32,000 nucleotides of DNA from the NCBI GenBank assembly GCA_027460535.1, contig JAPZAR010000025.1:1-32000 (forward strand). Direction: 5' to 3'. Below, piece after piece: positions 11,992 through 31,294 of this stretch; position 1 is the stretch's first letter, and every line of letters starts with the position of its first letter. Below the pieces are notes generated by a model. The model saw nothing but the letters and a program-made list of their open reading frames with translations. It was not told the DNA's origin and ran no database searches. The position numbers and the translations under genes are program-made. This DNA is from Candidatus Methanoperedens sp. GTDB taxonomy: Archaea; Halobacteriota; Methanosarcinia; Methanosarcinales; Methanoperedenaceae.

Positions 11992-11995
11992 CGGA

Positions 11996-12172
11996 TCAAT
12001 ATATCAATCCCATCCAAATCTTCTTTTCTGGAAATAGAGCACAAATCAGCATGTAGCCCGAGAAGAATAGAATAAAAGGTAAAATTTGAACCTTGCTGGA
12101 GAACTTGGGACGGGATTTATTATGGCAATAAAGCAAGACTGAAAACATGTTTATCAAGACTATATTTCTCAT
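11996..12172 (-). CDS. Possible small two-TM membrane protein (58 aa), speculative
   Basis: The track ORF 11996..12202 fills the 185-nt gap between the GT4 stop (12177) and the 629-aa gene start (11991). From the internal Met at 12172 it reads MRNIVLINMFSVLLYCH...ILPFILFFSGYMLICALF, with two hydrophobic segments. No homology was recognised, and it could be a chance AT-rich ORF. Confidence 0.2.
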   Translation of the reverse strand: MRNIVLINMFSVLLYCHNKSRPKFSSKVQILPFILFFSGYMLICALFPEKKIWMGLIY

Positions 12173-12176
12173 AGTT

Positions 12177-17586: not shown

Positions 17587-18790
17587 TTATAGCCTCCGTA
17601 TAAGCACCTTCGATGGCGTTTACTATATTTTTTATGTCATAATTTTCTACATACTCTAAAGCATTTCTTTCAATTTTTGCTTTTTCATCAGGATTCTTTA
17701 AGTAATACAAAATACGCTCAAGAAGCTCTGATTTATCATTTACTAATACCCCATTTTCTTTATTTTTAATTATTTTTCTAACGGCAGGAATGGAGTAAGC
17801 TATGCATAGAGTACCTGAAGCCATCGCCTCTAAAAGCACTATCCCAAACCCCTCCATCTTTGAGGGGAGAACAAATATATCTGCCCTTTTGTAGAGGCCT
17901 ATCAACCCATCGTCAGACACGTTTCCAGCAAAAATAGCTTTATCTTTTAGATTCTGATTTCCTACAATTTTTTCCAACTCTTTTTTGTATCCATAATCTT
18001 TTCCAACGATAACAAACTTGCCTTTTGGAAACTCTTTCAAAATTTCCGGCATTATTTCTATTATATCTTGTATTCCTTTATATTTCTCTATTCTTCCTAC
18101 AAAAAGCAAAATTTTGTTCTGATCATTAATTCCAAACTTATCTATTGCATTTTTATTTATGTTTATATTTTTATAACCATCCAATTCTATTCCATTTGGA
18201 ACAATTTTAATTTTATTTATATCTCCCCCCCTTTCATTATACTGCTGTATATGGTCTTCTGTTAACGCAATCAGCCGTTTAGAATTTTTTAGTAGATATC
18301 GCCCAAAGGTTTTGTCGTATACTTTTTTAAATAACTTAGCGTCAGATGATAAATTAGTAGGGATTATTAAGTCATGTGCTGTCAATATGAATGGTTTTTT
18401 AAACTTATTTGCATAATAGCATCCTGCCAGAGATGTAGATATATGGTATCCATGAGCATGGATTACATCAAATTCTTGTGTATTTTTTTTTAATTCTTTA
18501 AACATCTCAGGAATCCAATTAAAGCTCCAAAACCTAAATTGCATGTTAAATCTTCTTATAAAAGCCCCGTTGATAATGTCATTTTTGGGGAGATGCGTTT
18601 TAATCTTTGATTTGAAAATAAACGGCGGAGTAAACACTAAGGATACAACATCCTCTTTTGAAAGACTAGTAGTCGTATAAATTACCACATCATGCCCTTT
18701 ATCATATAAGTATTTAGATAATAGGTATGTATGTTTTTCAGCGCCTCCGAGTGATGGATAAAATCTGTTTTGTATGAGAAGTATCTTCAT
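17564..18790 (-). CDS. GT4-family glycosyltransferase
   Basis: 408 aa. The N-terminus MKILLIQNRFYPSLGGAEKHTYLLSKYL is typical of GT4 N-terminal domains. The catalytic region reads EGFGIVLLEAMASGTLCIAYSIPAVRKIIKNKENGVLV. Confidence 0.85.
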   Translation of the reverse strand: MKILLIQNRFYPSLGGAEKHTYLLSKYLYDKGHDVVIYTTTSLSKEDVVSLVFTPPFIFKSKIKTHLPKNDIINGAFIRRFNMQFRFWSFNWIPEMFKELKKNTQEFDVIHAHGYHISTSLAGCYYANKFKKPFILTAHDLIIPTNLSSDAKLFKKVYDKTFGRYLLKNSKRLIALTEDHIQQYNERGGDINKIKIVPNGIELDGYKNININKNAIDKFGINDQNKILLFVGRIEKYKGIQDIIEIMPEILKEFPKGKFVIVGKDYGYKKELEKIVGNQNLKDKAIFAGNVSDDGLIGLYKRADIFVLPSKMEGFGIVLLEAMASGTLCIAYSIPAVRKIIKNKENGVLVNDKSELLERILYYLKNPDEKAKIERNALEYVENYDIKNIVNAIEGAYTEAINENMLSR

Positions 18791-18806
18791 ATTTCTTCCT
18801 CATCCA

Positions 18807-19946
18807 TCATATTTGCAGTAAAAGCATTTCCATCCTTCCTGCAATCCTCTCCCAATCATAATTTTCTTCTACAAAACTTCTGCCTTCCAATCCCATCTTC
18901 CTTCTCAGTTTGTCATCTTCAAATAGCATAGTTATCTTATCTTTATACTCCTCCTTATTTGATGCATATAATATTTTATCACGTGCCACTTTTTCGATGC
19001 TGCTCAACCTCGTAGAAATAATTGGTTTTTCGCATGCCATATATTCAAATAATTTCAAAGGAACGGCACTCTCCGATATTGCGCTCTTCCTGAAAGGAAT
19101 CAAGCATATATCCATCGCTGAAATGTATTTCGGCACCTGAGAATAAGGAACCATACCAATAAATTTGACCCTATCCTTCAGATCATATCTCTTAGCCAAT
19201 TCTATATTTTCTTTAAATCTTCCTTCCTTTCCCACGATGACCAAATTTATTTCATTTTCTAATTCATTCAATACTGAAAAAACAGGTTCAAAATCGATCC
19301 ATTCTCTCAAAACCCCAACATAGCCAAGGATGAAGCCATTAAGACCCAGCTCTTCTTTCATCTTTTGACCATAATTTCTAAACAGATTCGTATCCACGCC
19401 ATTTGAGATAATTTCAGATTTATTTTCGGGGATACTATAGGTTTTTCCAAGATTATCCGTGGTAAGAGTTATCTTGCTAGAGATGCTGATATTCTTTTTA
19501 AGCATAATATCTCCAAATATTCCTCCAACCGATCTCAACAGAGAGGGAATTTGAGGCGACTCTTTGATCATGGCGCTAAGATCATCCGCGATATCATATA
19601 CTGTATCAAGTTTCTTAGCAGCATAATAACCCGACACCAGAGTGCTATAATTCAAATGGACCTCGAAGTCCTTCTCCTTCATAAGATTGGTGACTTTATT
19701 TCTTGAAAAAACTTCCTGGATTATAGGACTTATTTTCTTATCAGTCAAATGACGATAATCAACTCTATTGAATATCTCACTAAAGTATTCTGAATATGAT
19801 TCTAAGTCATCCTGCCCGCCCTTCCACCAATCATTTAAACTCAAGACTGTAACATTATGCTTTTTCGATAGATATTTGACAAAATGGTGGGGTCTATTAT
19901 GTTGGGATTTTTTCAAATCCACTATAGATGTTATTAAGATGTTCAT
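18807..19946 (-). CDS. GT4-family glycosyltransferase
   Basis: 379 aa. LGYVGVLREWIDF...AVPLKLFEYMACEKPIISTRLSSIEKV has GT-B/GT4-like architecture. It is the last gene of the AT-rich block, 21 nt downstream of wecB. Confidence 0.75.
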   Translation of the reverse strand: MNILITSIVDLKKSQHNRPHHFVKYLSKKHNVTVLSLNDWWKGGQDDLESYSEYFSEIFNRVDYRHLTDKKISPIIQEVFSRNKVTNLMKEKDFEVHLNYSTLVSGYYAAKKLDTVYDIADDLSAMIKESPQIPSLLRSVGGIFGDIMLKKNISISSKITLTTDNLGKTYSIPENKSEIISNGVDTNLFRNYGQKMKEELGLNGFILGYVGVLREWIDFEPVFSVLNELENEINLVIVGKEGRFKENIELAKRYDLKDRVKFIGMVPYSQVPKYISAMDICLIPFRKSAISESAVPLKLFEYMACEKPIISTRLSSIEKVARDKILYASNKEEYKDKITMLFEDDKLRRKMGLEGRSFVEENYDWERIAGRMEMLLLQI

Positions 19947-19967
19947 TAGAAACTCGCTAGGTACATT

Positions 19968-21053
19968 TTATCCACTTCTCCACTTTGCTTCCATCACCCT
20001 CCCAATCCTCTCGGCCGCCCTCCCATCACCGAATGGATTCCTCCATCCGTTCCCCTTTGCAAGCATGCTTCTGGCACACTCCACTACCCTCTCAGGCTCA
20101 ACCCCTGCAAGCAAATTCGATCCAACCTCAACAGTTTCAGGCCTTTCCGTGCTATCCCTGAGGGTAACGCATGGCACGCCAAGGATGCATGTCTCCTCTT
20201 GAACGCCTCCTGAGTCCGTCAGGACAAGACGCGCGCTGCTCTCAAGCTTCAAAAAGTCAAGGAAATCCACGGGATCGATCAATCTGATATATCCATTTGT
20301 CCTGATTCTAAACTCATCCATTTTTTTTCTTGAGCGGGGATGGATGGGATAGATAACAGGAATATCAAATTCATGGCTAAGTTTCTCGATGCCCTTCAAC
20401 ATCGCGGTTAGCCTTGCAGGGTCGTCCACGTTCTCCTGCCTGTGCGCCGTTACGAGGAAAAATTCTTTTGGTGCAATGTTCAATTCTTCCAGGGTGCTCT
20501 TCTCATTTGCGAGCCTTAAATTCTGGTTGACTGCATCAACGATCGTGTTCCCGGTAACGAATATCTTCTCTTCAGGGATGCCTTCATGCAGCAATATTTC
20601 CCTGGATTTTTCTGTGGGTGCGAAGAGGTAATCTGACGCGTGGTCTGCCAGGGCTCTGTTTAATTCCTCAGGCATACGTCTGTCATAGCTCCGCAAACCT
20701 GCCTCTACGTGAGCTACCTTGATGTGCAGCTTGGACGCTGCAAGCGCCCCCGCAAGCACGGTATTGGTGTCACCCTGCACCAGCACAGCATCAGGCTTCT
20801 CTTTCATGAGCACTCTCTCGATCCCTGCCATCATCTTGCCCGTCTGTTCGCCATGCGCTCCAGAACCGACCTCAAGGTTATACTTCGCCTCCGGGAGCTC
20901 AAGCTGCTCGAAGAAAACCCTGTCCATGCTGTAGGAATAATGCTGGCCTGTATGAAGGATAAAATGATCAAGGCCCCTTCGCTCGCATTCCCTTATAACC
21001 GGAGACATTTTTATGATTTCAGGTCTTGTTCCAAGGATTATTGCAAGGCTCAC
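19968..21053 (-). CDS. wecB: UDP-N-acetylglucosamine 2-epimerase (non-hydrolysing)
   Basis: 361 aa with a GTG start. Hallmark motifs: ILGTRPEIIKMSP, HVEAGLRSYD, DSGGVQEETCILGVPCVTLRDSTERPETV. GTGA start/stop overlap with the upstream GT2 gene. Confidence 0.9.
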   Translation of the reverse strand: MSLAIILGTRPEIIKMSPVIRECERRGLDHFILHTGQHYSYSMDRVFFEQLELPEAKYNLEVGSGAHGEQTGKMMAGIERVLMKEKPDAVLVQGDTNTVLAGALAASKLHIKVAHVEAGLRSYDRRMPEELNRALADHASDYLFAPTEKSREILLHEGIPEEKIFVTGNTIVDAVNQNLRLANEKSTLEELNIAPKEFFLVTAHRQENVDDPARLTAMLKGIEKLSHEFDIPVIYPIHPRSRKKMDEFRIRTNGYIRLIDPVDFLDFLKLESSARLVLTDSGGVQEETCILGVPCVTLRDSTERPETVEVGSNLLAGVEPERVVECARSMLAKGNGWRNPFGDGRAAERIGRVMEAKWRSG

Positions 21054-21943
21054 GCTTTCACTTCCCGTTTCTCCCGGATCAATTTCGACATCGAGTGCAG
21101 TATGATCCCTGTAAATACCATAAGAGACCCTATCAGTGTCAGCAATATCATCAACAGCGTTGGTCCGAACCGAAGGCTGCTTCCCAGATAAAAGTCCCGT
21201 ATATAGCTCAATCCCATGGCCAATCCAACTGCCATGAACGCTATGCCTGGGGCCGTAAAATAATACATTGGTCTATTTAATTCCATATCCTGCAGCACTC
21301 TGACCAGGACCTTCAATCCATGGCCCAGGGGATTCTCAGTGGAGCAATCAACATCGTACCTCACCCCGATCTCCACTTCTTTTAACTTCAGCCCTGCATT
21401 GGCTGCATCCATCAGCATCTCGCTCTCTATGGCCATTCCATTCTGCCTGAAGTTGAACACATGCGCCTTACTTGCTGCAAATGCACGAAAGCCGCTCTGG
21501 GTATCGGTAACACGAAGCCCGCTGTTCAGGTTGGTAGCCCTATCAAGCACGCTCTGACCTATACGGCGGTAAAAAGGTGTGTTCTTTCCATTGCCGTTCA
21601 TGTACCTGCTGCCGTTCACCATGTCCGCCTCCCCGGCGAGGATCGGAGCCACGAGCTTCGGGATCTCTTCTGGGTCGTGCTGCCCGTCGGAATCAAGGAT
21701 AACTATGACCTTTGTACCATTCTGTGCTGCTAACTCAAAACCTGTCTTAAGCGCAGCACCCTTTCCTTTGTTTGCAGGATGGCGGATAATTTTAGCCCCC
21801 GCCATCTCAGCTATCTCTGCAGTATGATCTTTGCTTCCATCGTCGACAACTATAACACAGTCGGCATGCTGTCTGCAATGGAGTACCAGGCTGCCTATGG
21901 ATACTTCCTCATTGAATGCGGGAAGGATTGCAGTTAAAGGTTC
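21050..21943 (-). CDS. GT2-family glycosyltransferase, dolichyl-phosphate hexose synthase-like with two C-terminal TM helices; start codon unresolved
   Basis: The track ORF (21050..21805) starts at an internal Met. The same frame stays open up to 21943 and there encodes the conserved GT2 N-terminus TAILPAFNEEVSIGSLVLHCRQHADCVIVVDDGSKDHTAEIAE. Downstream motifs are ILDSDGQHDPEEIP (DxD) and the C-terminal TM pair YYFTAPGIAFMAVGLAMGL / LLMILLTLIGSLMVFTGIIL. The coordinates give the maximal open frame. There is no ATG, GTG or TTG in frame between 21943 and 21805. Confidence 0.75.
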   Translation of the reverse strand, partial: EPLTAILPAFNEEVSIGSLVLHCRQHADCVIVVDDGSKDHTAEIAEMAGAKIIRHPANKGKGAALKTGFELAAQNGTKVIVILDSDGQHDPEEIPKLVAPILAGEADMVNGSRYMNGNGKNTPFYRRIGQSVLDRATNLNSGLRVTDTQSGFRAFAASKAHVFNFRQNGMAIESEMLMDAANAGLKLKEVEIGVRYDVDCSTENPLGHGLKVLVRVLQDMELNRPMYYFTAPGIAFMAVGLAMGLSYIRDFYLGSSLRFGPTLLMILLTLIGSLMVFTGIILHSMSKLIREKREVKA

Positions 21944-22415: not shown

Positions 22416-23291
22416 TTAAAAAAAAGAATTCGCCATTTTCTGTCCGGTACGCATTCGATTTCTCCTTGCAAACTTCAGGTAAACAAGGGCAAAGAAGGCG
22501 TACCATAGCGGAAAGATAATGTATCCAGCAAAACTCTCCCCGCCCTCCACTGCGGAAGGTCCGAAATAGTAGCCCGCAAACAATAGCAGCACAATACGCA
22601 AAAGGTTCTGGATTGAGGTGCCAATGATGCCAAAAAGCAACATGGCTGCCCATTGCTTTCTTGGAAGCGGAATATCCAGGGACATCAGGGCAAAAACCGC
22701 AAGAAATACAGAGATCGAGGCAGCACCCGAACATTCGGCATTGATGATCACCACGAGGCTTTCACTCGAAAGCGTGGTCATTGAAATTGCTGTACCACTG
22801 GTTGTGATCGCGATAAAGTTCTTCGCAATAGTATAGACCACCCATGTTGTAGCCTGAGCATACTGCACTCCTGCAAAAGTATTCACAAGCTTAGGAAACG
22901 CTATTCCAAAGCCGTATATGCACAGAAGAAGCGCGGGCAGGGAAGCAGCCTCGCCGAAAAATACGAACGCAAGTCCTGTCCATGCAAGGAGAAGGCGGAA
23001 TATTTCAAATTCCGGAGCCACTGCAGGCAGGAAGAAAGAAGCTATCATGATCCCCGCCCCGCCTGCTGCAAACAAAGGTGCAGGTTTGGCATCATGGATC
23101 TCGCGTCGCTTTGCGAATAAAAAGATCAGGCAGAGAAATAGCACTGCCCACGGATACACGCCGTTGAGTGTAAAGTATTCAGGCGACAGGTTTGCCAGTG
23201 ATTTCAACGGATTAAACAGGACTGCCGCGGCTGAGGCAAATATGAGAAAGTACCCGGTCCTTTGCTTCAGCGTAATGTCCATCAGGTTCAT
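22416..23291 (-). CDS. Archaeosortase (exosortase/archaeosortase EpsH-like family); PEF-CTERM-type (ArtC-like) inferred from its neighbour
   Basis: 291 aa and polytopic (~7-8 TM). The family signature around the catalytic Cys is VVIINAECSGAASISVFLAV (Cys187, nt 22731-22733). A conserved Arg sits in IQNLLRIVLLLFAG (Arg232). A PEF-type sorting-signal protein is encoded two genes upstream. Confidence 0.8.
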   Translation of the reverse strand: MNLMDITLKQRTGYFLIFASAAAVLFNPLKSLANLSPEYFTLNGVYPWAVLFLCLIFLFAKRREIHDAKPAPLFAAGGAGIMIASFFLPAVAPEFEIFRLLLAWTGLAFVFFGEAASLPALLLCIYGFGIAFPKLVNTFAGVQYAQATTWVVYTIAKNFIAITTSGTAISMTTLSSESLVVIINAECSGAASISVFLAVFALMSLDIPLPRKQWAAMLLFGIIGTSIQNLLRIVLLLFAGYYFGPSAVEGGESFAGYIIFPLWYAFFALVYLKFARRNRMRTGQKMANSFF

Positions 23292-23321
23292 AGTGGTGCA
23301 GGAGTCAAAAAATCTTTCGAA

Positions 23322-23744
23322 TCAATCGAACCTGTACTCAATGGTGTCTACAGGCTCTATATGGTCGTCGCGATAGACTGCAAAAGAGATGTTATGTACA
23401 GGCTCTTCAATGATTGTATCGTTTACGTACTGTCTTTCAGTGGGGAGCGTCATGGAGAATGAGAATGGCAGATCTGGCATGACTTCAACGGTCTCATTGG
23501 TAATAAAAATGGAATTCATAAAAACACGAACCGTGTAGTTATGGCTGATGGCATCACCATTATTTATTCGGACTGAGATATCTGATATCTTTCCGAGTTG
23601 TGCGCTATAACCATCCACTCTGTTAAACTCTACGGGTTTCGTGTATTTTGTTTCCTGCTGGTATACTCCTTGAACAATGAAGATCAGTATACTTACCAGA
23701 ATCAATAGTAAAAATATATAAACATATTTTAATTTAAGATTCAT
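23322..23744 (-). CDS. Signal-anchored protein with a beta-rich ectodomain (CARDB/DUF1616-C-terminal-like), unknown function
   Basis: 140 aa. The N-terminal TM is MNLKLKYVYIFLLLILVSILIFIV. It is followed by ISVRINNGDAISHNYTVRVFMNSIFITNETVEV, an alternating beta pattern. There is a 4-nt overlap with the upstream PEF-signal gene, and it ends 30 nt before the archaeosortase start. Confidence 0.55.
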   Translation of the reverse strand: MNLKLKYVYIFLLLILVSILIFIVQGVYQQETKYTKPVEFNRVDGYSAQLGKISDISVRINNGDAISHNYTVRVFMNSIFITNETVEVMPDLPFSFSMTLPTERQYVNDTIIEEPVHNISFAVYRDDHIEPVDTIEYRFD

Positions 23745-24235
23745 TTAAGTATACTTTTCCGCAATCTCGTATAAAATATTCCAATTAACAATAGGGGTAC
23801 AGCCAAACCAAATTTGCTGAACTCAGGGGCTGCAATTACCTCAAATCCTTTGGAGGAGCTACTGTATCTACTGCCTTGTGCAAGCGTACCACTACAAAAG
23901 CCATTAGAAAATTCTTTAGCGTTAATTTTCCATTTATTACTTATTTGACCTGGAGTAAAATAACTGATATATTGGTTTCCAATATTGGCAATACATTGAG
24001 TAGATACGGTACTGCTACCAACAACCCAATTAAAGCTCATGGAATTACCAATAAAATTCGCAGAAGATGGATTTGGAGTTACCGTATCTGTCACAAGAGT
24101 GTTTATAGCGAAATTATCGCTACCTGGCGGCGTAGCTGTACCTGTCAGAGTATGGGTATATTTATAAGTACCTGGTGCACTTGCTGCATTGGCAGACAAA
24201 AAAATAATAATTACAAGCAATACTAATTTTCTCAT
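23741..24235 (-). CDS. Small secreted protein with a PEF-type C-terminal archaeosortase sorting signal
   Basis: 164 aa. The signal peptide is MRKLVLLVIIIFLSANAASA/PG. The ~115-aa domain is Thr/Ser/Asn-rich and has two Cys. The C-terminus is tripartite: APEF (aa 136-139), the hydrophobic helix SKFGLAVPLLLIGIFY, and the basic tail TRLRKSILK (signal encoded at ~23744-23827). Confidence 0.75.
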   Translation of the reverse strand: MRKLVLLVIIIFLSANAASAPGTYKYTHTLTGTATPPGSDNFAINTLVTDTVTPNPSSANFIGNSMSFNWVVGSSTVSTQCIANIGNQYISYFTPGQISNKWKINAKEFSNGFCSGTLAQGSRYSSSSKGFEVIAAPEFSKFGLAVPLLLIGIFYTRLRKSILK

Positions 24236-24958
24236 TTATCTCACCCCTCCAATGATTAAAGCAATCTGCGTGAGCACCATTCCTACGAATATTATGAACA
24301 GCACGCTGGATAGCCTGCCGAACCTGGTGCGCAGGTTTCCGACGGCACTCTGGCGCTTCCCGGCAAGCGGCTCTGAGAGTTCCATATATATAAGCAGGAT
24401 TATCAATGCAATGCTGATTATCAGGCCTACGTTCAGCGCATTGTGCGTGACGAAGGATCCATCGTAGTATGCCATGGAATTAATAGAACTCGTCTTTGCG
24501 GATGACGAACTAACCACTGACGTGGCAAACGTGGCAAATGAAACAAAGCTGCTCAATAACGCTGGATGATATGCAGGAACTGAAAGGGATGTTATGGAAT
24601 TTCCGCTATCGGATTGTGTTTTCGCCACGAATGTGACCTGCTCCCCGGTTTTCAATGGGTTGCTGTAAACGTATTGGAACTGCCTGCCTGCATTTGGTGC
24701 AAGGCTTGCAGTGCCGCTCATCACGATCTCACCGTTCGCATAAAGGCCGTAATGAGTGTCCGCCTCTGTATGTGACGGATTGTTCAAGAAAAAGGTTACA
24801 AGGATTGGCTCCCCTTGTCTGGGCGCCTCAGGCATTGCCCGTATCGCGACCGCATCCAGGCGTGACTGCAAACTTGCAGCAAAGCTGCCAAGGATTAGAA
24901 TCGCAAACCATAACACAACTATCTTGAATAAAAGTCCACGCTGTCCCCCGTTACTCAT
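24236..24958 (-). CDS. Membrane protein with an N-terminal anchor, Ig/CARDB-like ectodomain, Ser-rich linker and C-terminal TM pair; unknown function
   Basis: 240 aa. The first TM is LLFKIVVLWFAILILGSFAA. The ectodomain reads PRQGEPILVTFFLNNPSHTEADTHYGLYANGEIV...EQVTFVAKTQSD. The linker SFATFATSVVSSSSAKTSS is followed by LNVGLIISIALIILLIYM and SSVLFIIFVGMVLTQIALIIGG. Its stop abuts the start of the PEF-signal gene. Confidence 0.55.
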   Translation of the reverse strand: MSNGGQRGLLFKIVVLWFAILILGSFAASLQSRLDAVAIRAMPEAPRQGEPILVTFFLNNPSHTEADTHYGLYANGEIVMSGTASLAPNAGRQFQYVYSNPLKTGEQVTFVAKTQSDSGNSITSLSVPAYHPALLSSFVSFATFATSVVSSSSAKTSSINSMAYYDGSFVTHNALNVGLIISIALIILLIYMELSEPLAGKRQSAVGNLRTRFGRLSSVLFIIFVGMVLTQIALIIGGVR

Positions 24959-25236
24959 TTCCTATTCCTCCTAATTTGATGAAATTTATTGACATTACAC
25001 ATGACGACCACCTGCGTTTTTTATGACTCTCCACTCTAGGATCGACAGTTATTATAACTGTGAATACGATTCTTATTTTAGAGTTGACAATTAACCATTG
25101 CATTTAAAGGTATTTAAAATTATCGGTAAATAAATATAATTATCATAATCATTAACACTGCATGCTAATTATCACTACATGTAGATGATGCGGAGAGGCA
25201 GTATGATTATATAACTTAAAGTACTGAAACATTACC
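24959..25236. promoter_or_regulatory. Divergent intergenic control region between the archaeosortase cassette and the CPBP operon
   Basis: A 278-nt AT-rich spacer between divergently transcribed units. It contains TATA-like runs (TTTAAAAT, AAATAAATATAAT), three copies of AATTATC (25118, 25138, 25167) and two TTGACA(A)TTA motifs. Function is inferred from position only. Confidence 0.3.
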
Positions 25237-26055
25237 ATGTTTAATTACATTTCCAAGAAACTCGAGTTCAGTCACGTAAGCTCCAGATTTTTTATTCTTT
25301 TGATCTTTATTGCCATCATTGTGTCCGAGTATATATTTGCATTCAGGGATGTAAGCTACGGAATAGTGCTCTCTCTCTTTATTACGATCGCAATTTATGT
25401 CACAATATCAGTCACCAGGATGGAAGGAGATTTCGTAAATTCGGCAGAATCTCTTGCGCTAATACCAATTTATGTGCTTTTTACCTCATCCCTCCCCTGG
25501 TTTTTCATCAACCAGCAGTACCTCTTACCTGCGGTTTACTCTTTGATCCTTGCCCTCTGCTTCTGGCACATAAACGAGCGCAATATAGACCTTCGTGAGC
25601 TTGGGTTCCGTTCAGAAGGCGCACTGAAATACGCTCTCATCGGTGCAGCATTAGGTATTCCAACCGGGATTATGGAATATTTAATCCTCATGCCTTCACC
25701 ATCATTCCCATCTTTTGAAATCACGATTTTGTTTCGTGATGTGCTTTATATGCTGTTATTTGTCGCTCTGGCAGAAGAACTCCTGTTCAGAGGCATTATA
25801 ATGAATGACCTGAAAAAAGTGTTCGGCTTGAGAACAGCGATCCTGGCACAGGGTGCTATATTCGGAATCATGCATATGACATGGCGCTCATCCTATGAGA
25901 TCGCATTCACTTTTTTCGCGGGTGTACTTCTGGGATACTTTTATTACAGAACAAGAAGTCTCGTCGGTCCAATAGTAATGCACGGAATGAATAATATTAT
26001 TCTCGTCTCCTTGATGCCGTATATATTTCCCGTTGTCCAAAAGTGGTTTGCATGA
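25237..26055 (+). CDS. CPBP-family intramembrane glutamic endopeptidase (CAAX protease/Abi-like)
   Basis: 272 aa and polytopic. All three family motifs are present: LAEELLFRG (EExxxR), IFGIMHM (FxxxH) and VMHGMNNI (HxxxN). Confidence 0.85.
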   Translation: MFNYISKKLEFSHVSSRFFILLIFIAIIVSEYIFAFRDVSYGIVLSLFITIAIYVTISVTRMEGDFVNSAESLALIPIYVLFTSSLPWFFINQQYLLPAVYSLILALCFWHINERNIDLRELGFRSEGALKYALIGAALGIPTGIMEYLILMPSPSFPSFEITILFRDVLYMLLFVALAEELLFRGIIMNDLKKVFGLRTAILAQGAIFGIMHMTWRSSYEIAFTFFAGVLLGYFYYRTRSLVGPIVMHGMNNIILVSLMPYIFPVVQKWFA

Positions 26056-26810
26056 AGGCCGGGCTCAGGGTCGATGTTGACTGTATCGCTGATGCTCTGG
26101 CACTTCCTGCACTTTTTGATATTCTCGAAAGATATGATTCCAGAGCAACTTTTTTTATTGCTACAGGTCCCGATGATACATTTCGGAATATCGGGCACTA
26201 TGCAGGAAAAAAAATCTTTGACCTGCCTCTCAGAAGATATGGAATGGGGTTTTTCCACGGGCTTTTAAAGAAACATGTGGAATCACATCCTAATCTTAAA
26301 ATTCTCATTGATACCGACCATGAGATAGGGCTTCATGGTTACAGGCATTACGAATGGATGAATTTTCTTCAAGGGAAAAGAAGGGAGGAGGTATCGACAA
26401 TGATATCAAAAGGGTGCGAGCTGTTCGAAAATGAGTTCAGCTTCCCTCCAAGCTCGTTTGCCTCACCAGGTTTTCGGACCAGCAATGAATACTTCCTCGC
26501 ACTCGATGATTTTGGTTTTGATTATTCCAGCGACTTTTATGGTGACAGAGTATTTTATCCGGAAATAAATGGCAAGAGTCTAAAAACCATGCAGGTTCCA
26601 GTTAGCATGCCCTCACCGGGCGAATTAGGCGCAGATGACAGCTATATAATAACGAGGGTAAAAGAGCTTTGTAAGAGCGAATATTTTGTTTTCTACATTC
26701 ATCCCTCTTATGAAACCGTCTTTAAAAAGAACCTTTTAGAGCAAATCCTGAACCTTACTGGAGGGACCATAACACTTTCGGAGATTCATGAAAATCCTTC
26801 AGATATATGA
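26052..26810 (+). CDS. Polysaccharide deacetylase/deformylase family protein (ArnD-like)
   Basis: The track ORF starts at GTG 26043. I prefer ATG 26052, which forms an ATGA overlap with the CPBP stop. MKAGLRVDVDCIADALALPALFDILERYDSRATFFIATGPD and HEIGLHGYRHYEW resemble ArnD-type NodB-fold deacetylases. Confidence 0.7.
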   Translation: MKAGLRVDVDCIADALALPALFDILERYDSRATFFIATGPDDTFRNIGHYAGKKIFDLPLRRYGMGFFHGLLKKHVESHPNLKILIDTDHEIGLHGYRHYEWMNFLQGKRREEVSTMISKGCELFENEFSFPPSSFASPGFRTSNEYFLALDDFGFDYSSDFYGDRVFYPEINGKSLKTMQVPVSMPSPGELGADDSYIITRVKELCKSEYFVFYIHPSYETVFKKNLLEQILNLTGGTITLSEIHENPSDI

Positions 26811-27948
26811 GCTTGATCCGCTGAAACGAATTGGGGGCGTGGAGGTTGCTATTTTCGAACTCTCGCGCCACCTTGCTGCGCTGGGGCATGAGGTAACTGT
26901 TGTATCAGGAGCAGATGGAACATGTGGAGAATACATGCAGGATGGAGTTCACTTTATTAACATGGATTTCTGTAATATTCTTAGAGTTGCCCGCTCCCGT
27001 GGCGGACTTTCGCTTGCCAGGCAAGCTGCATTTCTACCCGTCGTACTCTCAAAAAAACTGAGCGGATATGACATATACCACGGGCATGTGTACACTTCCG
27101 GGATCGCTGCGAACATCCTTGCAAGAAGGTACGGCGGGGTTGCCGTGAATACTATTCATGGCTCCTACTATCCAGAATGGGATTTACTCGTGAACCCTGC
27201 GGCTGCTGTATTCTATAGATCGGTAGAACGCATCCTTGCGCCTGCGCTCGCCCATATGTCTGACGTTCAAATCCATACAGGCGGTTACTTTGCTCAACAA
27301 GTACTCAGATGGGGTGCACAAACAGAAAAGATCAAAGTGATTTACAATGGGGTTGATGTCAAGAAGTTCCATCCGGGAATTAAACCGGTTCCCTCTGCCT
27401 ACCCATGCCCTGTCCTTGTGACAGCAAGGAGGCTTGTCAGAAAAAACGGTGTGGACAGACTTATACGCTTCATGCCTTTCATACTCGAGAATAAGGAGTG
27501 CAGGCTTCTTATAATAGGCGATGGACCCGAACGCCACAATCTATTGCACCTGGCTGATGAGCTTGGCATAAAAGAAAGCGTGGATTTTCTGGGTGCAATA
27601 CCTCATAAGAACATAGCAGAATACATTGCATTGGCGGACATCGCAGTGATACCCAGTATAGTGGAGGCTTCAAGTATCTTTATGCTTGAAGCCATGGCGA
27701 TGTGCAAGCCTGTTGTTGCTACGGGTGCATGGGGACTTGAAGAAATCATAAACGGAAAGAATGGTGTGCTCACGGATGCCGAGCACCTCGGAGAAGAAAT
27801 TGTGGCGCTCCTCTCCGACGAGCGCAGGTTAAAGGAAATTGGGAATAACGCACGCAGTTATGTGATCGAAAACCATGCCTGGGAAAAGATTGCAAAACGT
27901 ATAGAAAACGAATATCTCAGGCTTTTGCAATGCAGACCATCCATTTGA
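26788..27948 (+). CDS. GT4-family glycosyltransferase
   Basis: 386 aa. The N-terminus reads MKILQIYELDPLKRIGGVEVAIFELSRHLAALGHEVTVV. The catalytic region reads EASSIFMLEAMAMCKPVVATGAWGLEEIINGKNGVL. It overlaps the deacetylase 3' end by 23 nt. Confidence 0.85.
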   Translation: MKILQIYELDPLKRIGGVEVAIFELSRHLAALGHEVTVVSGADGTCGEYMQDGVHFINMDFCNILRVARSRGGLSLARQAAFLPVVLSKKLSGYDIYHGHVYTSGIAANILARRYGGVAVNTIHGSYYPEWDLLVNPAAAVFYRSVERILAPALAHMSDVQIHTGGYFAQQVLRWGAQTEKIKVIYNGVDVKKFHPGIKPVPSAYPCPVLVTARRLVRKNGVDRLIRFMPFILENKECRLLIIGDGPERHNLLHLADELGIKESVDFLGAIPHKNIAEYIALADIAVIPSIVEASSIFMLEAMAMCKPVVATGAWGLEEIINGKNGVLTDAEHLGEEIVALLSDERRLKEIGNNARSYVIENHAWEKIAKRIENEYLRLLQCRPSI

Positions 27949-28047: not shown

Positions 28048-29373
28048 TTACCCGCTCCCTCCAACAGTAGCTTTCTTTACAAGCACATGCGGCGCCCCGT
28101 CGCTAACAGGCACAAGCTGCCCCGCTTTCCCGCATCTTCCAGAGTTCATCTCTAGATCGTTCCCTATCATGACCACGCTATCCAATATCTCAAGTGTATG
28201 CCCCGATAATGAAACATCCCTCAGCGGTCTGGCGATCTCGCCGTTCTCGACCATGAACCCGCGTTCTGCATTGAACTGGAACACTCCCTCGCCGGGATTG
28301 ACCTGGCCCCCGCGGGAGCCCATGAGATATATCCCGTTCTTTAATTCAGAGAGCATCTCCTCGAATTTTGTTCCATCTGGAGCTATGAAGGTGTTGCTCA
28401 TCCTTATGATAGGGCGGGCATAGCCCTGGGAACGGGAATTCCTGCTCTCTCCTCCCAGTTTGCCAGCAGTTTCCCTTGAATGTATATACGCCTTAAGCAC
28501 TCCGTTCTCTATCACGCTTGTTCTCCTGGAATTAGCCCCCTCGTCATCAAAAGGGTAATAGCCGAACTCATGAAGAGAGGGATCGTCATATACTGTTATA
28601 AGTGGAGAGGCGATCCGTTCTCCTATCTTGCCTGCAAGTATGGAATTGTCCTCCAGAACATGGTCGGCCTCTACAGCGTGTCCCACGGCCTCATGAATGA
28701 ATACACCCGCCAGTTCCTGGTCAAGGATAACCGGGTATGTACCGCCTTTTGGGGTTGATGCAGAGAGAAGTTCGACTGCTGTAGTGGCCGCTTTTCGCGC
28801 AAGCTCAAATGCATCATGCTTTTTAAAGATCTCAAAGCCCATTACTCCGAACCTGCTTTCCCTTCCTATCTGATATATCCCTTCTGACTGGGCAACCGCG
28901 CTCACGGCAAAGCCCACCCTGTTCAATGTGTATTCGCAATCCAGCCCTTCTGAATTTGAATAGCCGACCGTCAGAAGCGATTCCGAATAAACAGCGCTTG
29001 TGCTTTTTATCCCTTCGATGCGGGCAGTTTTTTCAATTTCCAAAAGCAGCTTTACTTTATTCTCTATGGGAATATCCTCAGGGTTCTCCAGTACCTCCGG
29101 AAGGTTCTGCAATGTCGGTTTCTCTACCGGTGCGAGATTTATTTCATCTCTCGGTCTCTTGTTCTTTGCTGCCTCCGCAAGCCTTCTTGCAGAGCCAAGG
29201 GCTGCCTCCAGGCCTTCCGGGTTATCCTTCGATACATAGCCCCATGATCCTCCGCAGAGAACCCTGACCGCGGCTCCGCTTGAGAAATTATTTGTGATCT
29301 CCCGGATCTCCCCATTATCCAGAACAATAGCTGTGGAGACGCTTCTTATAATACGGGTATCGTAAAAATCCAT
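28048..29373 (-). CDS. tldD: TldD-type zinc metalloprotease (TldD/PmbA family)
   Basis: 441 aa. HEAVGHAVEADH is the HExxxH motif that distinguishes TldD from PmbA/TldE. The C-terminal GRCGKAGQLVPVSDGAPHVLV is typical of the family. Confidence 0.85.
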   Translation of the reverse strand: MDFYDTRIIRSVSTAIVLDNGEIREITNNFSSGAAVRVLCGGSWGYVSKDNPEGLEAALGSARRLAEAAKNKRPRDEINLAPVEKPTLQNLPEVLENPEDIPIENKVKLLLEIEKTARIEGIKSTSAVYSESLLTVGYSNSEGLDCEYTLNRVGFAVSAVAQSEGIYQIGRESRFGVMGFEIFKKHDAFELARKAATTAVELLSASTPKGGTYPVILDQELAGVFIHEAVGHAVEADHVLEDNSILAGKIGERIASPLITVYDDPSLHEFGYYPFDDEGANSRRTSVIENGVLKAYIHSRETAGKLGGESRNSRSQGYARPIIRMSNTFIAPDGTKFEEMLSELKNGIYLMGSRGGQVNPGEGVFQFNAERGFMVENGEIARPLRDVSLSGHTLEILDSVVMIGNDLEMNSGRCGKAGQLVPVSDGAPHVLVKKATVGGSG

Positions 29374-29380
29374 GGGTCTC

Positions 29381-31294
29381 TCACAGGATAGTAACCGGCC
29401 TTGTTTCCGGCAGGGCTATGTTGAATTTGGTTCTGGAGGCAAGTTTCTTAAGCGTGGAGATAAAACCTTCCTTTTCTACGCCCACGAGGCTGTATTCCAG
29501 TACCTCCTCAATATTCGTCACCGGGATGATCTTGATTATATCCTTGAATTCATCCTCAATGAGCACATCGCCCATGTTAGATTTTGGAATTATCACAGTC
29601 TTTATCCCTGCCTGGGCTGCTGCTTCGATCTTGTAGGTGACACCACCCACTGGCAGCACATCACCCCTGACAGAGAGCGATCCTGTCATGGCTACGCTCT
29701 GATCCACCGGTATTCCCTGGATAGCGGAAAGAACCGCGGTAGCTATGGATATGCTGGCCGAATCGCCTTCCACTCCTTCATACGTGCCCACGAACTGGAT
29801 GTGCACATCCATACTCGATATATCCTTGCCCGTGGTTTTCTTGATCAGCGCGGAAACATTCTGGACAGCTTCCTTTGCAATGTTCTTAAGCATGCCAGTG
29901 GCGATAATGTGGCCTTCGGATATAGACTGGGTGGGCGTGACCTCAGCTATTATGGGAAGCACTATTCCCGAATCCTCACCCATCACGGCAAGACCGTTGA
30001 CCCGGCCTATCTGCGCACCTTCCTTCACGAACAGCCTGTAATCTTTCCTGCGTTCAAGATACTGGTGCGCAAGCTGCTGTTCGACCGAGCGTGCAATGCT
30101 TTTTGCTTTCAATACATGTTGGGCCGTCGTGATCTGCGCCTTTTCACCGTGGGCTATATCCCCGGCCACGCGCACAAGCCCGCCGAGGTCCCTGAGCTTT
30201 AGGGTGAGATGTCCTTTCCTGCCCGCCCTGCGCCTCGCTTCCCTGAGGATCTCTTCGACAGCGCCCCTGTCAAAATGTGGAATTTTACCATCCTTCACCA
30301 CTTCTTGCGCAACGAAACGAACAAGCTTCTGCCTGTTCTCGGGAGTATCTTCCATCGTATCGCTCATGTATATCTCATAGCCGTATCCCTTGATACGGGA
30401 ACGCAATGCCGGATGCATGCCTTTGAGGGCATCCAGGTTCCCTGCGGCGATCATGATAAAGTCTGTGGGAACGGGGTCGGTTTTTACCATTGCTCCGCTT
30501 GATCTCTCAGACTGGCCTGTGATCGCAAATTCTTTTTCCTGAAGGGCTGTGAGGAGATTCTGCTGCGATTCGATACGCAGTGTGTTTATTTCATCGATGA
30601 ACAGGACACCTTTGTGTGCTTTATGGATTGCCCCGCTTTCGACCCTGTCATGGGCCGGGGTCTCAAGACCACCGGATTGGAACGGGTCATGGCGCACATC
30701 ACCCAGGAGAGCTCCAGCATGTGCCCCTGTGGCGTCGATATACGGTGCTATCTCCTTACCGGCATTTGAAACAAGAAGTTTGGGAATGAAAATGGTTTCT
30801 TTAGGCATGAACTGTCGCATCATTATGGCGATCAAAACAGCCGCAATGATCCCCCAGAGCAGCATCCCGGTATAAAATGAATATGCCACAATTCCAAGAA
30901 CAAGAAGCATAACGAACATATTCCTGGCCTGCATCCTCTTCTGGGCTTCCAGCTTGTGGGCGTCGGTTATTTCTTTACCTTTCCCGGCAGGAACGATACG
31001 TATCTTGGGATTGTTGGAGTCTTCAGGATTGTGATATATAAGAACATCCTGCAACTCTTCCTTTGGAAGCAATTCGGCCATCGCCTTGGCTAGCATCGAT
31101 TTACCTGTGCCCGGAGTTCCGAGCATCATCACATGCCTTCGCTGGTTAGCCGCCTTCTTTACAACTTCCACGGCATGTTCCTGGCCTATGACCTGTTCTA
31201 TTAACTGTTTTGGAACCTCGATATCTTTTGTGGATGTTATTTCTAATCCGCCAAGAAGGTCCTGGTTCTTCACTTCATTTTCAGCATTTTCCAT
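29381..31294 (-). CDS. lonB: Archaeal membrane-bound ATP-dependent Lon protease (LonB type)
   Basis: 637 aa. Walker A is MLGTPGTGKSM. Two TM helices (MFVMLLVLGIVAYSFYTGMLLWGIIAAVLIAIMM) are inserted before Walker B (VLFIDEIN). The protease domain has GVEGDSASISIATAVLSA (catalytic Ser) and GGVTYKIEAA (Lys). Confidence 0.95.
   Translation of the reverse strand: MENAENEVKNQDLLGGLEITSTKDIEVPKQLIEQVIGQEHAVEVVKKAANQRRHVMMLGTPGTGKSMLAKAMAELLPKEELQDVLIYHNPEDSNNPKIRIVPAGKGKEITDAHKLEAQKRMQARNMFVMLLVLGIVAYSFYTGMLLWGIIAAVLIAIMMRQFMPKETIFIPKLLVSNAGKEIAPYIDATGAHAGALLGDVRHDPFQSGGLETPAHDRVESGAIHKAHKGVLFIDEINTLRIESQQNLLTALQEKEFAITGQSERSSGAMVKTDPVPTDFIMIAAGNLDALKGMHPALRSRIKGYGYEIYMSDTMEDTPENRQKLVRFVAQEVVKDGKIPHFDRGAVEEILREARRRAGRKGHLTLKLRDLGGLVRVAGDIAHGEKAQITTAQHVLKAKSIARSVEQQLAHQYLERRKDYRLFVKEGAQIGRVNGLAVMGEDSGIVLPIIAEVTPTQSISEGHIIATGMLKNIAKEAVQNVSALIKKTTGKDISSMDVHIQFVGTYEGVEGDSASISIATAVLSAIQGIPVDQSVAMTGSLSVRGDVLPVGGVTYKIEAAAQAGIKTVIIPKSNMGDVLIEDEFKDIIKIIPVTNIEEVLEYSLVGVEKEGFISTLKKLASRTKFNIALPETRPVTIL

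What the first reader, a model, noticed from the sequence alone, without database searches (positions are those of the whole stretch)
22416..24958. Self-contained archaeosortase cassette: sortase, adjacent PEF-signal substrate and two signal-anchored beta-rich partners
Seen directly:
- Four co-directional minus-strand genes are packed tightly: a 0-nt gap, a 4-nt overlap and a 30-nt gap.
- The 291-aa polytopic protein carries the exosortase/archaeosortase Cys motif (NAECSG, Cys187) and a downstream LRIV Arg.
- The 164-aa protein has a cleavable signal peptide and a small T/S/N-rich domain with two Cys.
- It ends in a textbook tripartite sorting signal: APEF, a hydrophobic helix and the tail TRLRK.

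Established: archaeosortase subfamilies pair with specific C-terminal signals (PGF-, VPXXXP-, PEF-CTERM and others, from the Haft et al. comparative genomics work). ArtA removes the signal and the substrate becomes lipid-anchored.

Inference and open questions:
- The arrangement looks like a dedicated one-sortase/one-substrate module.
- The 240-aa and 140-aa membrane proteins have Ig/CARDB-like ectodomains and no assigned function. They may be conserved accessory components such as a scaffold, a chaperone or co-substrates.
- I do not know the role of the small substrate.
Basis: partly seen in the sequence, partly recalled or inferred. Interest (0 to 1): 0.8.

Follow-up and report, generated by a model that had tools for sequence, protein, structure and literature searches.

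The report
Dedicated archaeal surface-protein sorting gene cluster

Summary
Four tightly packed minus-strand genes encode a 240-aa membrane protein, a 164-aa secreted protein with a PEF + helix + basic tail, a 140-aa membrane protein and a 291-aa exosortase/archaeosortase-family protein.

The sortase passes the general family models but fails every curated subfamily model (best ArtC, 43 bits against a cutoff of 100). The tail fails the PEF-CTERM model. Even so, 22 cargo proteins collected from related loci carry the same PEF-type tail.

The cassette is not self-contained:
- The divergently transcribed CPBP/Rce1-type intramembrane protease (25237-26055) is the best conserved partner. It travels with the sortase in Methanoperedens, Methanomethylovorans, ANME-1, Argoarchaeum, Dehalococcoidia and a Peptococcaceae bacterium.
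- Natural sortase::CPBP and GT4::sortase fusions exist.
- An ArnD-like deacetylase and a GT4 glycosyltransferase are linked in the archaeal loci.
- The trio 240-cargo-140 is duplicated as a unit: three trios share one sortase in Methanomethylovorans.

The window's clade has Glu where the superfamily has its third invariant His.

Verdict: an un-modelled, cross-domain, dedicated sorting system, a new variant of a known kind. The cleavage, the acceptor and the roles of the two Ig-like partners are inferred, not shown.

The parts
24236..24958 (-). p240: three-helix membrane protein with an Ig/CARDB-like ectodomain (residues 37-127), an invariant S136-S-F-x-S-F-A segment and a C-terminal helical hairpin. 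It is the first gene of the operon and has an AGGAGG ribosome-binding site upstream.
   Evidence: ORF and RBS. It has 107 homologues, none named. Invariant residues. AF2 model, pLDDT about 90 for the sandwich and <50 for residues 134-175. Best small-domain match is CARDB 3idu, TMt 0.73. 4 of 51 family members hit Pfam CARDB.
23741..24235 (-). Cargo (164 aa): Sec signal peptide, an approximately 110-aa 'pre-PEF' domain and a tripartite sorting tail.
   Evidence: The pre-PEF domain is shared with cargos of 150 to more than 1788 aa in related loci (hmmsearch E 1e-50 to 1e-9). No Pfam or NCBIfam hit.
23744..23827 (-). Sorting tail: PEF (23819-23827), then SKFGLAVPLLLIGIFY (hydrophobic), then TRLRKSILK (basic).
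   Evidence: It is the only PEF-type tail in the 32-kb window. It aligns in register with 21 other cargo tails. It gets no hit to TIGR03024.
23322..23744 (-). p140: N-terminal membrane helix plus a nine-strand beta-sandwich. It is a stand-alone relative of the C-terminal module of DUF1616 proteins.
   Evidence: AF2 model, pLDDT 83. Only weak fold matches. The p140 profile hits DUF1616 proteins at E 1e-5 to 1e-9.
22416..23291 (-). Exosortase/archaeosortase-family polytopic Cys transpeptidase. Codons: Cys187 at 22731-22733, Arg232 at 22596-22598, Glu252 at 22536-22538 (the position of the superfamily His).
24959..25236 (.). AT-rich divergent intergenic region. It contains a conserved GATAnnTTTAAATA element (25111-25124, minus strand), a likely archaeal TATA box for the p240 operon.
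   Evidence: Alignment with the equivalent regions of L003, L007, L008 and L023. Sequence. The promoter function is inferred.
25237..26055 (+). CPBP/Rce1-like glutamic intramembrane protease with intact E180-E-x-x-x-R and H249-x-x-x-N motifs.
   Evidence: PF02517 78.4 bits vs cutoff 22.4. Motifs. It is 48-64% identical in every full locus, more conserved than the sortase. It occurs fused to the sortase in P0238 (44% identity over 238 aa).
26043..26810 (+). CE4/DUF2334-type deacetylase. Its closest named relative is ArnD, the deformylase of a lipid-linked amino sugar.
   Evidence: 88.4 bits, below the cutoff of 382. Conserved next to the CPBP gene in archaeal loci.
26788..27948 (+). GT4 glycosyltransferase. 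Its best named relatives are BshA, MshA and the XrtA-system GTs, all below cutoff.
   Evidence: It occurs fused to the sortase in P0211 (three contigs).
21050..21937 (-). GT2, AglJ/PpgS-like polyprenyl-phosphate sugar synthase, downstream of the sortase. The homologous N-terminus has no ATG/GTG/TTG start codon.
   Evidence: It lies next to the sortase in L001, L008, L009 and L010.
19968..21053 (-). WecB, UDP-GlcNAc 2-epimerase. It is linked only loosely, within the Methanoperedens clade.
   Evidence: TIGR00236 434 bits vs cutoff 210. Synteny.

Best explanation
The locus encodes a dedicated C-terminal protein-sorting and anchoring system. It is built around an un-modelled subfamily of the exosortase/archaeosortase superfamily.

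Shown by the sequences:
- The 164-aa cargo has a Sec signal peptide and a PEF + helix + basic tail.
- The sortase keeps the C-x-G and N-x-x-R motifs.
- Cargo, p240, p140, sortase and a CPBP intramembrane protease form a gene set conserved across archaea and bacteria.
- Natural sortase::CPBP and GT4::sortase fusions exist.

Inferred from what is established for ArtA and proposed for exosortases:
- After export the cargo is held in the membrane by its tail.
- Cys187 of the sortase attacks at or near PEF on the outer face and releases the helix + basic remnant.
- The acyl-enzyme is then resolved by an amine nucleophile, which leaves the cargo anchored at the surface.

Inferred from synteny only:
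- The CPBP protease works in the same pathway. Most likely it clears or further trims the released membrane peptide.
- p240 and p140 are one-per-cargo structural partners. Their Ig-like ectodomains would hold the cargo's pre-PEF domain at the membrane or present the tail.
- In the archaeal versions, the GT4, the ArnD-like deacetylase and the AglJ/PpgS-like GT2 make a lipid-linked amino sugar. That sugar either decorates the cargo or serves as the acceptor.
For: Family assignment: TIGR04178 46.2/23 and PF09721 46.2/25.7.

Catalytic motifs: C187 is Cys in 86 of 87 sequences and R232 is Arg in 84 of 87. These match Haft's invariant C-x-G and N-x-x-R motifs (PMC1569441).

Cargo tails: 22 of 22 cargos show F-x-V-x3-[AI]-PEF-x-(about 18 hydrophobic)-Y-x3-R[RK][KR], while their passenger domains vary: Ig/filamin/TIG domains, S8, C1 and M10 proteases.

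Gene set: the full set of five components is present in the window and in L003, L005, L007, L008, L014, L016, L017, L018, L023, L024 and L027.

Conservation: the CPBP protease is 48-64% identical, against 36-43% for the sortase.

Fusions: P0238 is sortase::CPBP and P0211 is GT4::sortase. Each sits in a locus with a p240-like gene and a cargo-like gene.

Trio duplication: three p240-cargo-p140 trios share one sortase and one CPBP gene in Methanomethylovorans.

Precedent for acceptor-synthesis genes next to a sortase: artA with pssA and pssD (PMC7157517).

Translational coupling: overlaps or short gaps in both operons.
Against: - No biochemical evidence exists for any member of this system.
- The window's sortase lacks the superfamily's third invariant His. 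It has E252, and its only His is the non-conserved H66. Catalytic competence in this clade is therefore assumed.
- The tail does not reach the curated PEF-CTERM model.
- GT4 and the deacetylase are absent from the bacterial loci, so they are not universal parts.
- The roles proposed for CPBP, p240 and p140 rest only on co-occurrence and fold. The invariant p240 motif is modelled with low confidence.
Confidence: 0.72

Rival explanations
1. One reading: a self-contained four-gene module (one ArtC-type sortase, one PEF-CTERM substrate, two accessory proteins) that needs nothing else from the neighbourhood.
For: The four genes are tightly coupled. The order p240-cargo-p140-sortase recurs in L003, L005, L007, L008, L011, L012 and L023. 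ArtC is the best-scoring subfamily model.
Against: - The CPBP gene is present in every locus that is long enough, is better conserved than the sortase, and is fused to the sortase in P0238.
- GT4 is fused to the sortase in P0211.
- ArtC scores 43 bits against a cutoff of 100.
- The tail gets no hit to the PEF-CTERM model.
Confidence: 0.1
2. The CPBP protease, not the sortase homologue, removes the tail, as myxosortases do. The exosortase-like protein, which lacks the triad His in this clade, has another role such as transfer, ligation or export.
For: - The CPBP gene is the most conserved component.
- CPBP enzymes are proven sorting proteases (MrtX, PMC11980579).
- The window's sortase has E252 in place of His.
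- The window's CPBP gives sub-cutoff hits to MrtS, MrtJ, Mrt_core and MrtX.
Against: - Known myxosortase signals have an invariant Cys that is lipidated before cleavage. The window's tail has no Cys, and the Cys in other tails is replaced by Gly or Ser.
- All Mrt models score below cutoff.
- Cys187 and Arg232 are kept under selection.
- PEF-type signals abutting the helix are typical of exosortase and archaeosortase substrates.
Confidence: 0.1
3. No processing takes place. The 164-aa protein is simply a tail-anchored surface protein, and the sortase-like and CPBP genes serve the neighbouring glycan or EPS pathway.
For: The locus sits in a large glycan-synthesis region with five GT4 genes, a GT2, WecB, two deacetylases and a radical SAM enzyme. 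The tail fails the curated model.
Against: - The PEF motif is invariant in register across 22 cargos from two domains of life, while the rest of each protein varies.
- Bacterial loci have cargo, p240, p140, CPBP and sortase without glycan genes.
- An ordinary membrane anchor would not conserve a P-E-F motif at its outer end.
Confidence: 0.05

Closest known systems
Archaeosortase C / PEF-CTERM system (TIGR03762 / TIGR03024; Haft, Payne & Selengut 2012, cited from PMC5244752 and from my own knowledge)
   Same: ArtC is the best or near-best scoring subfamily model for every sortase of this system. The signal is P-E-F directly abutting a helix and a basic cluster. Both occur in Methanosarcinales.
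   Different: - Scores of 30-54 bits against a cutoff of 100.
- Only 1 of 14 tested tails reaches the PEF-CTERM cutoff.
- One to three adjacent cargos here. ANME-2d genomes are reported to hold about 10-19 PEF-CTERM proteins plus a separate ArtC (PMC5244752).
- Obligate p240, p140 and CPBP partners.
- Also found in Dehalococcoidia and Peptococcaceae.
Exosortase E / VPEID-CTERM dedicated system and other EpsH-CAAX protease fusions (fusions cited from Haft 2006, PMC1569441; XrtE details from my own knowledge)
   Same: A dedicated sortase with a neighbouring single target. The exosortase and a CPBP/CAAX-type protease are functionally tied, fused in XrtE and in P0238 here.
   Different: No hit to the XrtE model was listed. 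The signal motif differs. Here the two enzymes are usually separate genes, and p240/p140 have no described counterpart.
PEP-CTERM / XrtA EPS-associated system with EpsI, a CAAX-like protein, a deacetylase and stp glycosyltransferases
   Same: The sortase is embedded in glycan genes. The GT4, deacetylase and CPBP of the window each give weak hits to the XrtA-system families stp2/stp3, pepcterm_polyde and pepcterm_CAAX.
   Different: All those hits fall far below cutoff (100.5/409, 18.5/276, 18/81). There is no EpsI hit. The host is an archaeon without an outer membrane. There is one cargo instead of dozens.
ArtA / PGF-CTERM with PssA and PssD (Haloferax, Methanosarcina)
   Same: Cys/Arg-dependent cleavage of a tripartite tail followed by lipid anchoring. 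Acceptor-lipid synthesis genes are syntenic with the sortase in Methanosarcina (PMC7157517).
   Different: The ArtA model is not among the hits. The motif is PEF, not PGF. The neighbours are a GT4, an ArnD-like deacetylase and a GT2, not PssA/PssD.
Myxosortases (CPBP sorting proteases MrtX, MrtJ, MrtS)
   Same: The window's CPBP gene belongs to the same superfamily and has intact EExxxR and HxxxN motifs. It lies next to a protein with a tripartite C-terminal signal.
   Different: It scores below all Mrt cutoffs. The signal lacks the invariant Cys. An exosortase-family enzyme is always present as well.

Membership tests
Exosortase/archaeosortase superfamily (TIGR04178, PF09721) | Score above the curated cutoff of the family models | tested here: met
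   TIGR04178 46.2 bits vs 23; PF09721 46.2 vs 25.7.
Exosortase/archaeosortase superfamily (TIGR04178, PF09721) | Invariant C-x-G and N-x-x-R motifs (Haft 2006) | tested here: met
   C187-S-G189 and N229-L-L-R232. Cys in 86 of 87 and Arg in 84 of 87 related representatives.
Exosortase/archaeosortase superfamily (TIGR04178, PF09721) | Invariant H-x-x-x-G motif (third member of the proposed triad) | tested here: not met
   The window has E252-S-F-A-G256. All 15 Methanoperedens-clade sequences have E or D. 82 of 87 wider relatives have His. The only His in the protein is H66, which is not conserved.
Exosortase/archaeosortase superfamily (TIGR04178, PF09721) | Polytopic membrane protein (about 8 helices) | tested here: met
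   Hydropathy scan finds hydrophobic segments throughout residues 15-272. No topology program was run.
Archaeosortase C (TIGR03762) | Score of at least 100 bits against the ArtC model | tested here: not met
   43.0 bits. Relatives score 30-54 bits. Only 1 of 87 nearest representatives reaches E<=1e-20.
Archaeosortase C (TIGR03762) | Cognate substrates match PEF-CTERM (TIGR03024, cutoff 23 bits) | tested here: not met
   The window tail gets no hit at E<=10. Among 14 tails tested, only L005 passes (24.5); the others score 9.5-19.4 or get no hit.
Archaeosortase C (TIGR03762) | Many PEF-CTERM proteins per genome | not testable with these tools
   Only 32 kb of the genome is available. It contains exactly one PEF-type tail.
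Other archaeosortase/exosortase subfamilies (ArtD, ArtE, ArtF, thaumarchaeosortase, XrtG, XrtM, XrtR, XrtX, XrtY, CrtC, EpsH) | Score above the subfamily cutoff | tested here: not met
   All score 12-25 bits against cutoffs of 95-250.
CPBP / Rce1-like glutamic intramembrane proteases (PF02517), for the gene at 25237-26055 | Pfam score above cutoff, plus EExxxR and HxxxN motifs | tested here: met
   78.4 bits vs 22.4. E180-E-L-L-F-R and H249-G-M-N-N are present.
Myxosortase families (Mrt_core, MrtX, MrtJ, MrtS, MrtC, MrtP) | Score above cutoff and an invariant Cys in the cognate signal | tested here: not met
   Best scores are 50/130 (MrtS), 46/100 (Mrt_core) and 44/75 (MrtJ). The window tail has no Cys.
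EpsI (TIGR02914), exosortase-associated accessory protein, considered for p140 and p240 | Match to the EpsI model | tested here: not met
   No NCBIfam hit for p240. p140 gets only chance-level hits at E<=10.
CARDB domain (PF07705), considered for the p240 ectodomain | Pfam match or fold match | tested here: inconclusive
   The window protein has no Pfam hit. 4 of 51 family members hit CARDB, best E 2e-5. The predicted sandwich superposes on the PF1109 CARDB domain, 3idu (TMt 0.73, rmsd 2.4), but also on many other Ig-like folds.
DUF1616 (PF07760), considered for p140 | Homology to DUF1616 proteins | tested here: inconclusive
   p140 has no Pfam hit. A p140 profile does match the C-terminal helix + sandwich module of DUF1616 proteins in L003, L005, L007, L008 and L010 at E 1e-5 to 1e-9. 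The homology is therefore partial, covering a domain only.

The most novel reading that the evidence does not exclude
The system is a prokaryotic analogue of GPI anchoring. The proposed steps are:
1. The AglJ/PpgS-like GT2 and/or the BshA/MshA-like GT4 put an N-acetyl-hexosamine on a membrane lipid.
2. The ArnD-like deacetylase exposes its free amine.
3. The sortase resolves its cargo thioester on that amine, giving a glycolipid-anchored surface protein.
4. The CPBP protease disposes of the released tail.
5. p240 and p140 form the one-per-cargo docking scaffold.

The GT4::sortase fusion and the strict GT4-deacetylase pairing in the archaeal loci would then be explained. The His-to-Glu change in the Methanoperedens clade, together with the Lys that appears after PEF, might reflect re-tuned substrate recognition.
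Probability: 0.15. Interest if true: 0.85.

Novelty: new variant of a known kind. Interest (0 to 1): 0.55.

Why it matters
- Exosortase/archaeosortase systems are widespread. Only ArtA has been studied experimentally, and the acceptor and the role of the recurrent CAAX-protease partner are still open questions.
- This system is small and has a single cargo, which can be as short as 150-170 aa. Its partners (CPBP protease, two Ig-like membrane proteins, an amine-exposing deacetylase and a GT4) are all encoded side by side, and some are fused.
- It is therefore a convenient set for heterologous reconstitution and for mass spectrometry of the cargo's C-terminus.
- It also marks a surface-display route shared by methane- and alkane-oxidising archaea and by Dehalococcoidia. 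To my knowledge (not checked here) Dehalococcoidia lack peptidoglycan. In them the cargos are proteases.
- The system adds two protein families, p240 and p140, that no curated library names.

Tried and rejected
- Exact-sequence lookup of the 291-aa protein found nothing. The source was identified instead through p240 and p140, which are 100% identical to Ca. Methanoperedens MAG proteins.
- Scoring the tail against PEF-CTERM gave no hit. I did not read this as 'ordinary anchor', because the motif is conserved across all cargos.
- I looked for EpsI, XrtE or Mrt membership. No model was reached.
- p240 and p140 are not related to each other (hhalign probability 0.6%).
- Fold searches gave only generic Ig-like matches and no enzyme fold.
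- No solved structure is related by sequence to the sortase or to the CPBP protein.
- There are no tRNA or Rfam elements in the window.
- Haft 2012 and Abdul Halim 2018 were not held in the library. I could not check whether ArtA Arg253 corresponds to the His/Glu position.
- I rejected p240 and p140 as co-substrates, since neither has a motif + helix + basic tail.
- I rejected a type IV pilin reading of p140 and p240. The single weak hit is to a helix + sandwich architecture, and there is no class III signal motif.
- No held paper describes this gene set.


Full report
**1. The observation**

The junctions are 0 nt, a 4-nt overlap and 30 nt, and an AGGAGG sits before the first gene.

- The sortase has INAE-C187-S-G and N229-L-L-R232.
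- The cargo has a signal peptide, two Cys and an ectodomain that is 36% Ser/Thr/Asn. It ends in A-PEF-SKFGLAVPLLLIGIFY-TRLRKSILK.
- This is the only PEF-type tail in the 32-kb window.
- p240 and p140 are 100% identical to hypothetical proteins of a Candidatus Methanoperedens MAG. That identifies the source lineage.

**2.

- The sortase passes the general exosortase/archaeosortase models: TIGR04178 46.2 bits vs cutoff 23, and PF09721 46.2 vs 25.7.
- It fails every subfamily model. ArtC scores 43 vs 100. The thaumarchaeosortase, ArtE, ArtD, ArtF and several Xrt models score 12-25 bits against cutoffs of 95-250.
- The cargo, p240 and p140 match nothing in NCBIfam or Pfam.
- The tail alone gets no hit to PEF-CTERM (TIGR03024) at E<=10.

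By the curated definitions this is therefore a member of the superfamily, but not an ArtC/PEF-CTERM pair.

**3. Related loci**

The word-indexed search found only 47 sortase homologues. The named ones come from Methanoperedens or 'Methanobacteriota', plus a 38-42% identity tier. A profile search of 1.84 billion representatives found 54 at E<=1e-30, 187 at E<=1e-10 and 714 at E<=1e-3. Of the 87 nearest full-length sequences, only one reaches E<=1e-20 to ArtC, and none reaches that level for any other subfamily model.

Genome and contig look-ups gave 28 loci, which I analysed with scripts.

- The order p240-cargo-p140-sortase is the same in Methanoperedens-family contigs (L003/4, L007, L008; partial in L001/2 and L009), in a 38%-identity lineage (L005, L011, L012) and in Methanomethylovorans (L023).
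- In ANME-1 Methanophagales (L014), Ca. Argoarchaeum (L017), Dehalococcoidia (L016, L018, L019, L020) and a Peptococcaceae bacterium (L024), the order is permuted but the gene set is kept.

**4. The tail**

All 22 cargos end with the same tripartite signal in register: F-x-V-x3-[A/I]-PEF (one LEF, one PEL), then about 18 hydrophobic residues, a conserved Tyr, then R-[R/K]-[K/R].

The passenger parts differ completely.
- Four cargos have no passenger domain at all (150-171 aa, as in the window).
- Archaeal passengers are filamin/Ig/TIG or DUF11-type domains, in proteins up to more than 1788 aa.
- Dehalococcoidia passengers are an S8 subtilase, a C1 papain with a lectin domain, and an M10 protease with a TIG domain.
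- An approximately 110-aa 'pre-PEF' domain is shared by the Methanoperedens, Methanomethylovorans and L005/L011 cargos. The window's cargo consists of just this domain.

Only 1 of 14 tails reaches the TIGR03024 cutoff. The curated model is therefore too narrow for this signal, and failure to score does not make the tail an ordinary anchor.

**5. The cassette is not self-contained**

The divergently transcribed gene at 25237-26055 is a CPBP/Rce1-like intramembrane protease (PF02517 78.4 vs 22.4) with intact EExxxR and HxxxN motifs.

- A 48-64% identical orthologue lies in every locus with enough flank. That is better conserved than the sortase (36-43%) or p240 (42-54%).
- P0238 is a natural sortase::CPBP fusion. 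Its CPBP half is 44% identical to the window's over 238 residues (E 5e-70). It is followed by a p240-like gene and a cargo-like gene.
- Fusions of EpsH-like and CAAX-protease-like domains were already noted by Haft et al. in 2006 (PMC1569441).
- In the archaeal loci the CPBP gene is followed by a CE4/DUF2334 deacetylase and a GT4. In the window these are at 26043-26810 and 26788-27948, with overlapping ends.
- P0211 is a GT4::sortase fusion seen on three contigs, in the operon p240 | cargo(205 aa, PEF tail) | p130 | deacetylase | GT4::sortase | CPBP.
- The bacterial loci lack GT4 and the deacetylase.

**6. The two partners**

p240 has an N-terminal helix and a confidently modelled seven-strand Ig-like sandwich (residues 37-127, pLDDT about 90). 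This is followed by a low-confidence stretch holding the family's invariant S-S-F-x-S-F-A motif, and then a helical hairpin.
- The best compact structural match is the CARDB domain 3idu (TMt 0.73), among many Ig-like folds.
- 4 of 51 family members hit Pfam CARDB.

p140 is a helix plus a nine-strand sandwich (pLDDT 83) with only weak fold matches.
- Its profile matches the C-terminal module of DUF1616 proteins, which are encoded next to the GT4 in several of these loci (E 1e-5 to 1e-9).

The two families are unrelated to each other, and neither has a sorting tail.

The most telling fact comes from Methanomethylovorans. The trio p240-cargo-p140 occurs three times in tandem, with one sortase and one CPBP gene. 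This argues that the two proteins are needed once per cargo, as structural partners or a docking scaffold, and not as catalytic helpers of the sortase. That is an inference.

**7. An unexpected feature of the sortase**

Haft et al. 2006 defined three invariant motifs for the family: C-x-G, N-x-x-R and H-x-x-x-G. They proposed these as a Cys/Arg/His triad at the outer membrane face.

- The window protein has the first two. At the third it reads E252-S-F-A-G.
- All 15 Methanoperedens-clade sequences have Glu or Asp there. The six distant members of the first alignment, and 82 of 87 wider relatives, have His.
- The protein's only His (H66) is not conserved.
- The same clade has an altered tail, PEF-[G/S]-[K/P]-[L/F]-G...P-L, where the others have PEF-P/S followed by hydrophobic residues.
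- This is a single evolutionary event, so no statistical claim can be made.
- For ArtA the residues shown to be critical are Cys173, Arg214 and Arg253 (PMC9263693). I could not check how Arg253 aligns with this position.
- Two relatives (P0041/P0042, L013) have Ser in place of the Cys and sit in an unrelated context.

**8. Glycan genes**

The window is a large glycan-synthesis region, and its 8-20 kb stretch has low GC.

The closest named relatives are all below cutoff, and they are informative only as leads:
- Deacetylase: ArnD, the deformylase of undecaprenyl-phosphate-Ara4FN (88 bits).
- GT2 downstream of the sortase: AglJ and PpgS, which are polyprenyl-phosphate sugar synthases (153 and 134 bits).
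- GT4: BshA, the XrtA-system GTs and MshA (112-89 bits).

In Methanosarcina, artA sits beside pssA and pssD, which make the proposed amine acceptor archaetidylethanolamine (PMC7157517). By analogy, a lipid-linked hexosamine with a freed amine could be the acceptor here. Ordinary glycosylation of the cargo is the simpler alternative, although the window cargo has no N-x-S/T sequon.

**9. Mechanism and verdict**

- Best supported is a dedicated sorting system in which the exosortase-family enzyme removes the PEF tail and anchors the cargo.
- The CPBP protease acts in the same pathway, probably on the released membrane peptide.
- p240 and p140 are per-cargo partners.
- In archaea a small set of lipid-sugar enzymes is attached.
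- The gene set, motifs, fusions and duplication pattern are shown. Cleavage, the acceptor and the partner roles are inferred.

It works like ArtA/ArtC and like the dedicated XrtE-type systems. It is a member of the superfamily but of none of the curated subfamilies. I rate it a new variant of a known kind. It is moderately interesting in itself, and more so if the GPI-like anchor reading proves right.

Noticed in passing
window 22536-22538 (sortase codon 252): The superfamily's invariant H-x-x-x-G motif reads E-S-F-A-G. Glu or Asp is found in all 15 Methanoperedens-clade orthologues, and His in 82 of 87 wider relatives.
   Followed up: partly
P0041/P0042; L013 3566-4396: Two sortase relatives have Ser instead of the catalytic Cys (GAPSSG). 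They sit between PIN-domain-like genes, with no cargo, p240 or CPBP gene nearby.
   Followed up: no
window 21806-21937: The AglJ/PpgS-like GT2 aligns with its homologues for 44 codons upstream of the first ATG. No ATG, GTG or TTG lies between the preceding stop and that point. This means either a non-canonical start or a damaged gene.
   Followed up: partly
window 8000-20000: A low-GC block (0.31-0.34, against 0.44-0.52 downstream). It carries GT4 genes, a methyltransferase, a second deacetylase, an alkaline-phosphatase-type phosphodiesterase, a thymidylate-kinase-like protein and a radical SAM/SPASM enzyme. It looks like a variable glycan island.
   Followed up: no
window 25111-25124 (minus strand): A conserved GATAnnTTTAAATA element lies in the divergent intergenic region and is shared with L003, L007 and L008. 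It is a likely TATA box, placed about 150 nt upstream of the p240 start in the window.
   Followed up: partly
L023 4972-16141 (Methanomethylovorans): Three tandem p240-cargo-p140 trios with one sortase. The p240 copies appear highly similar on visual comparison of their sequences, which suggests recent segmental duplication.
   Followed up: partly
L003 1-460; L005 1561-2439; L007 745-1923; L008 997-1842; L010 7806-8714: DUF1616 membrane proteins are encoded beside the GT4 in many archaeal loci. They share their C-terminal helix + sandwich module with p140. The window has no such gene next to its GT4.
   Followed up: partly
window 5385-6575; L026 1302-1838: A YdjM-family membrane protein, fused to a CBM_4_9 domain in the window, lies 17 kb from the cassette. 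Another YdjM gene lies directly upstream of the sortase::CPBP fusion in L026. This may be coincidence.
   Followed up: no
L022 6890-7174 (Dehalococcoidales CP070645.1): A second, 94-aa fragment matching only the C-terminal 52 residues of the sortase lies elsewhere on the same chromosome as L019. It is possibly a gene remnant.
   Followed up: no
L011, L012 ('Bacteroidales' MAG) and L005: Two near-identical copies of the whole cassette are binned as Bacteroidales, yet they group with an unassigned metagenome contig (L005) and have archaeal-type neighbours (GT4, deacetylase). The taxonomic label may be a binning error.
   Followed up: no
window 28048-31294: PmbA/TldD-type metallopeptidase and LonB protease genes flank the GT4 operon. 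They are not conserved in related loci and are probably unrelated to the system.
   Followed up: no
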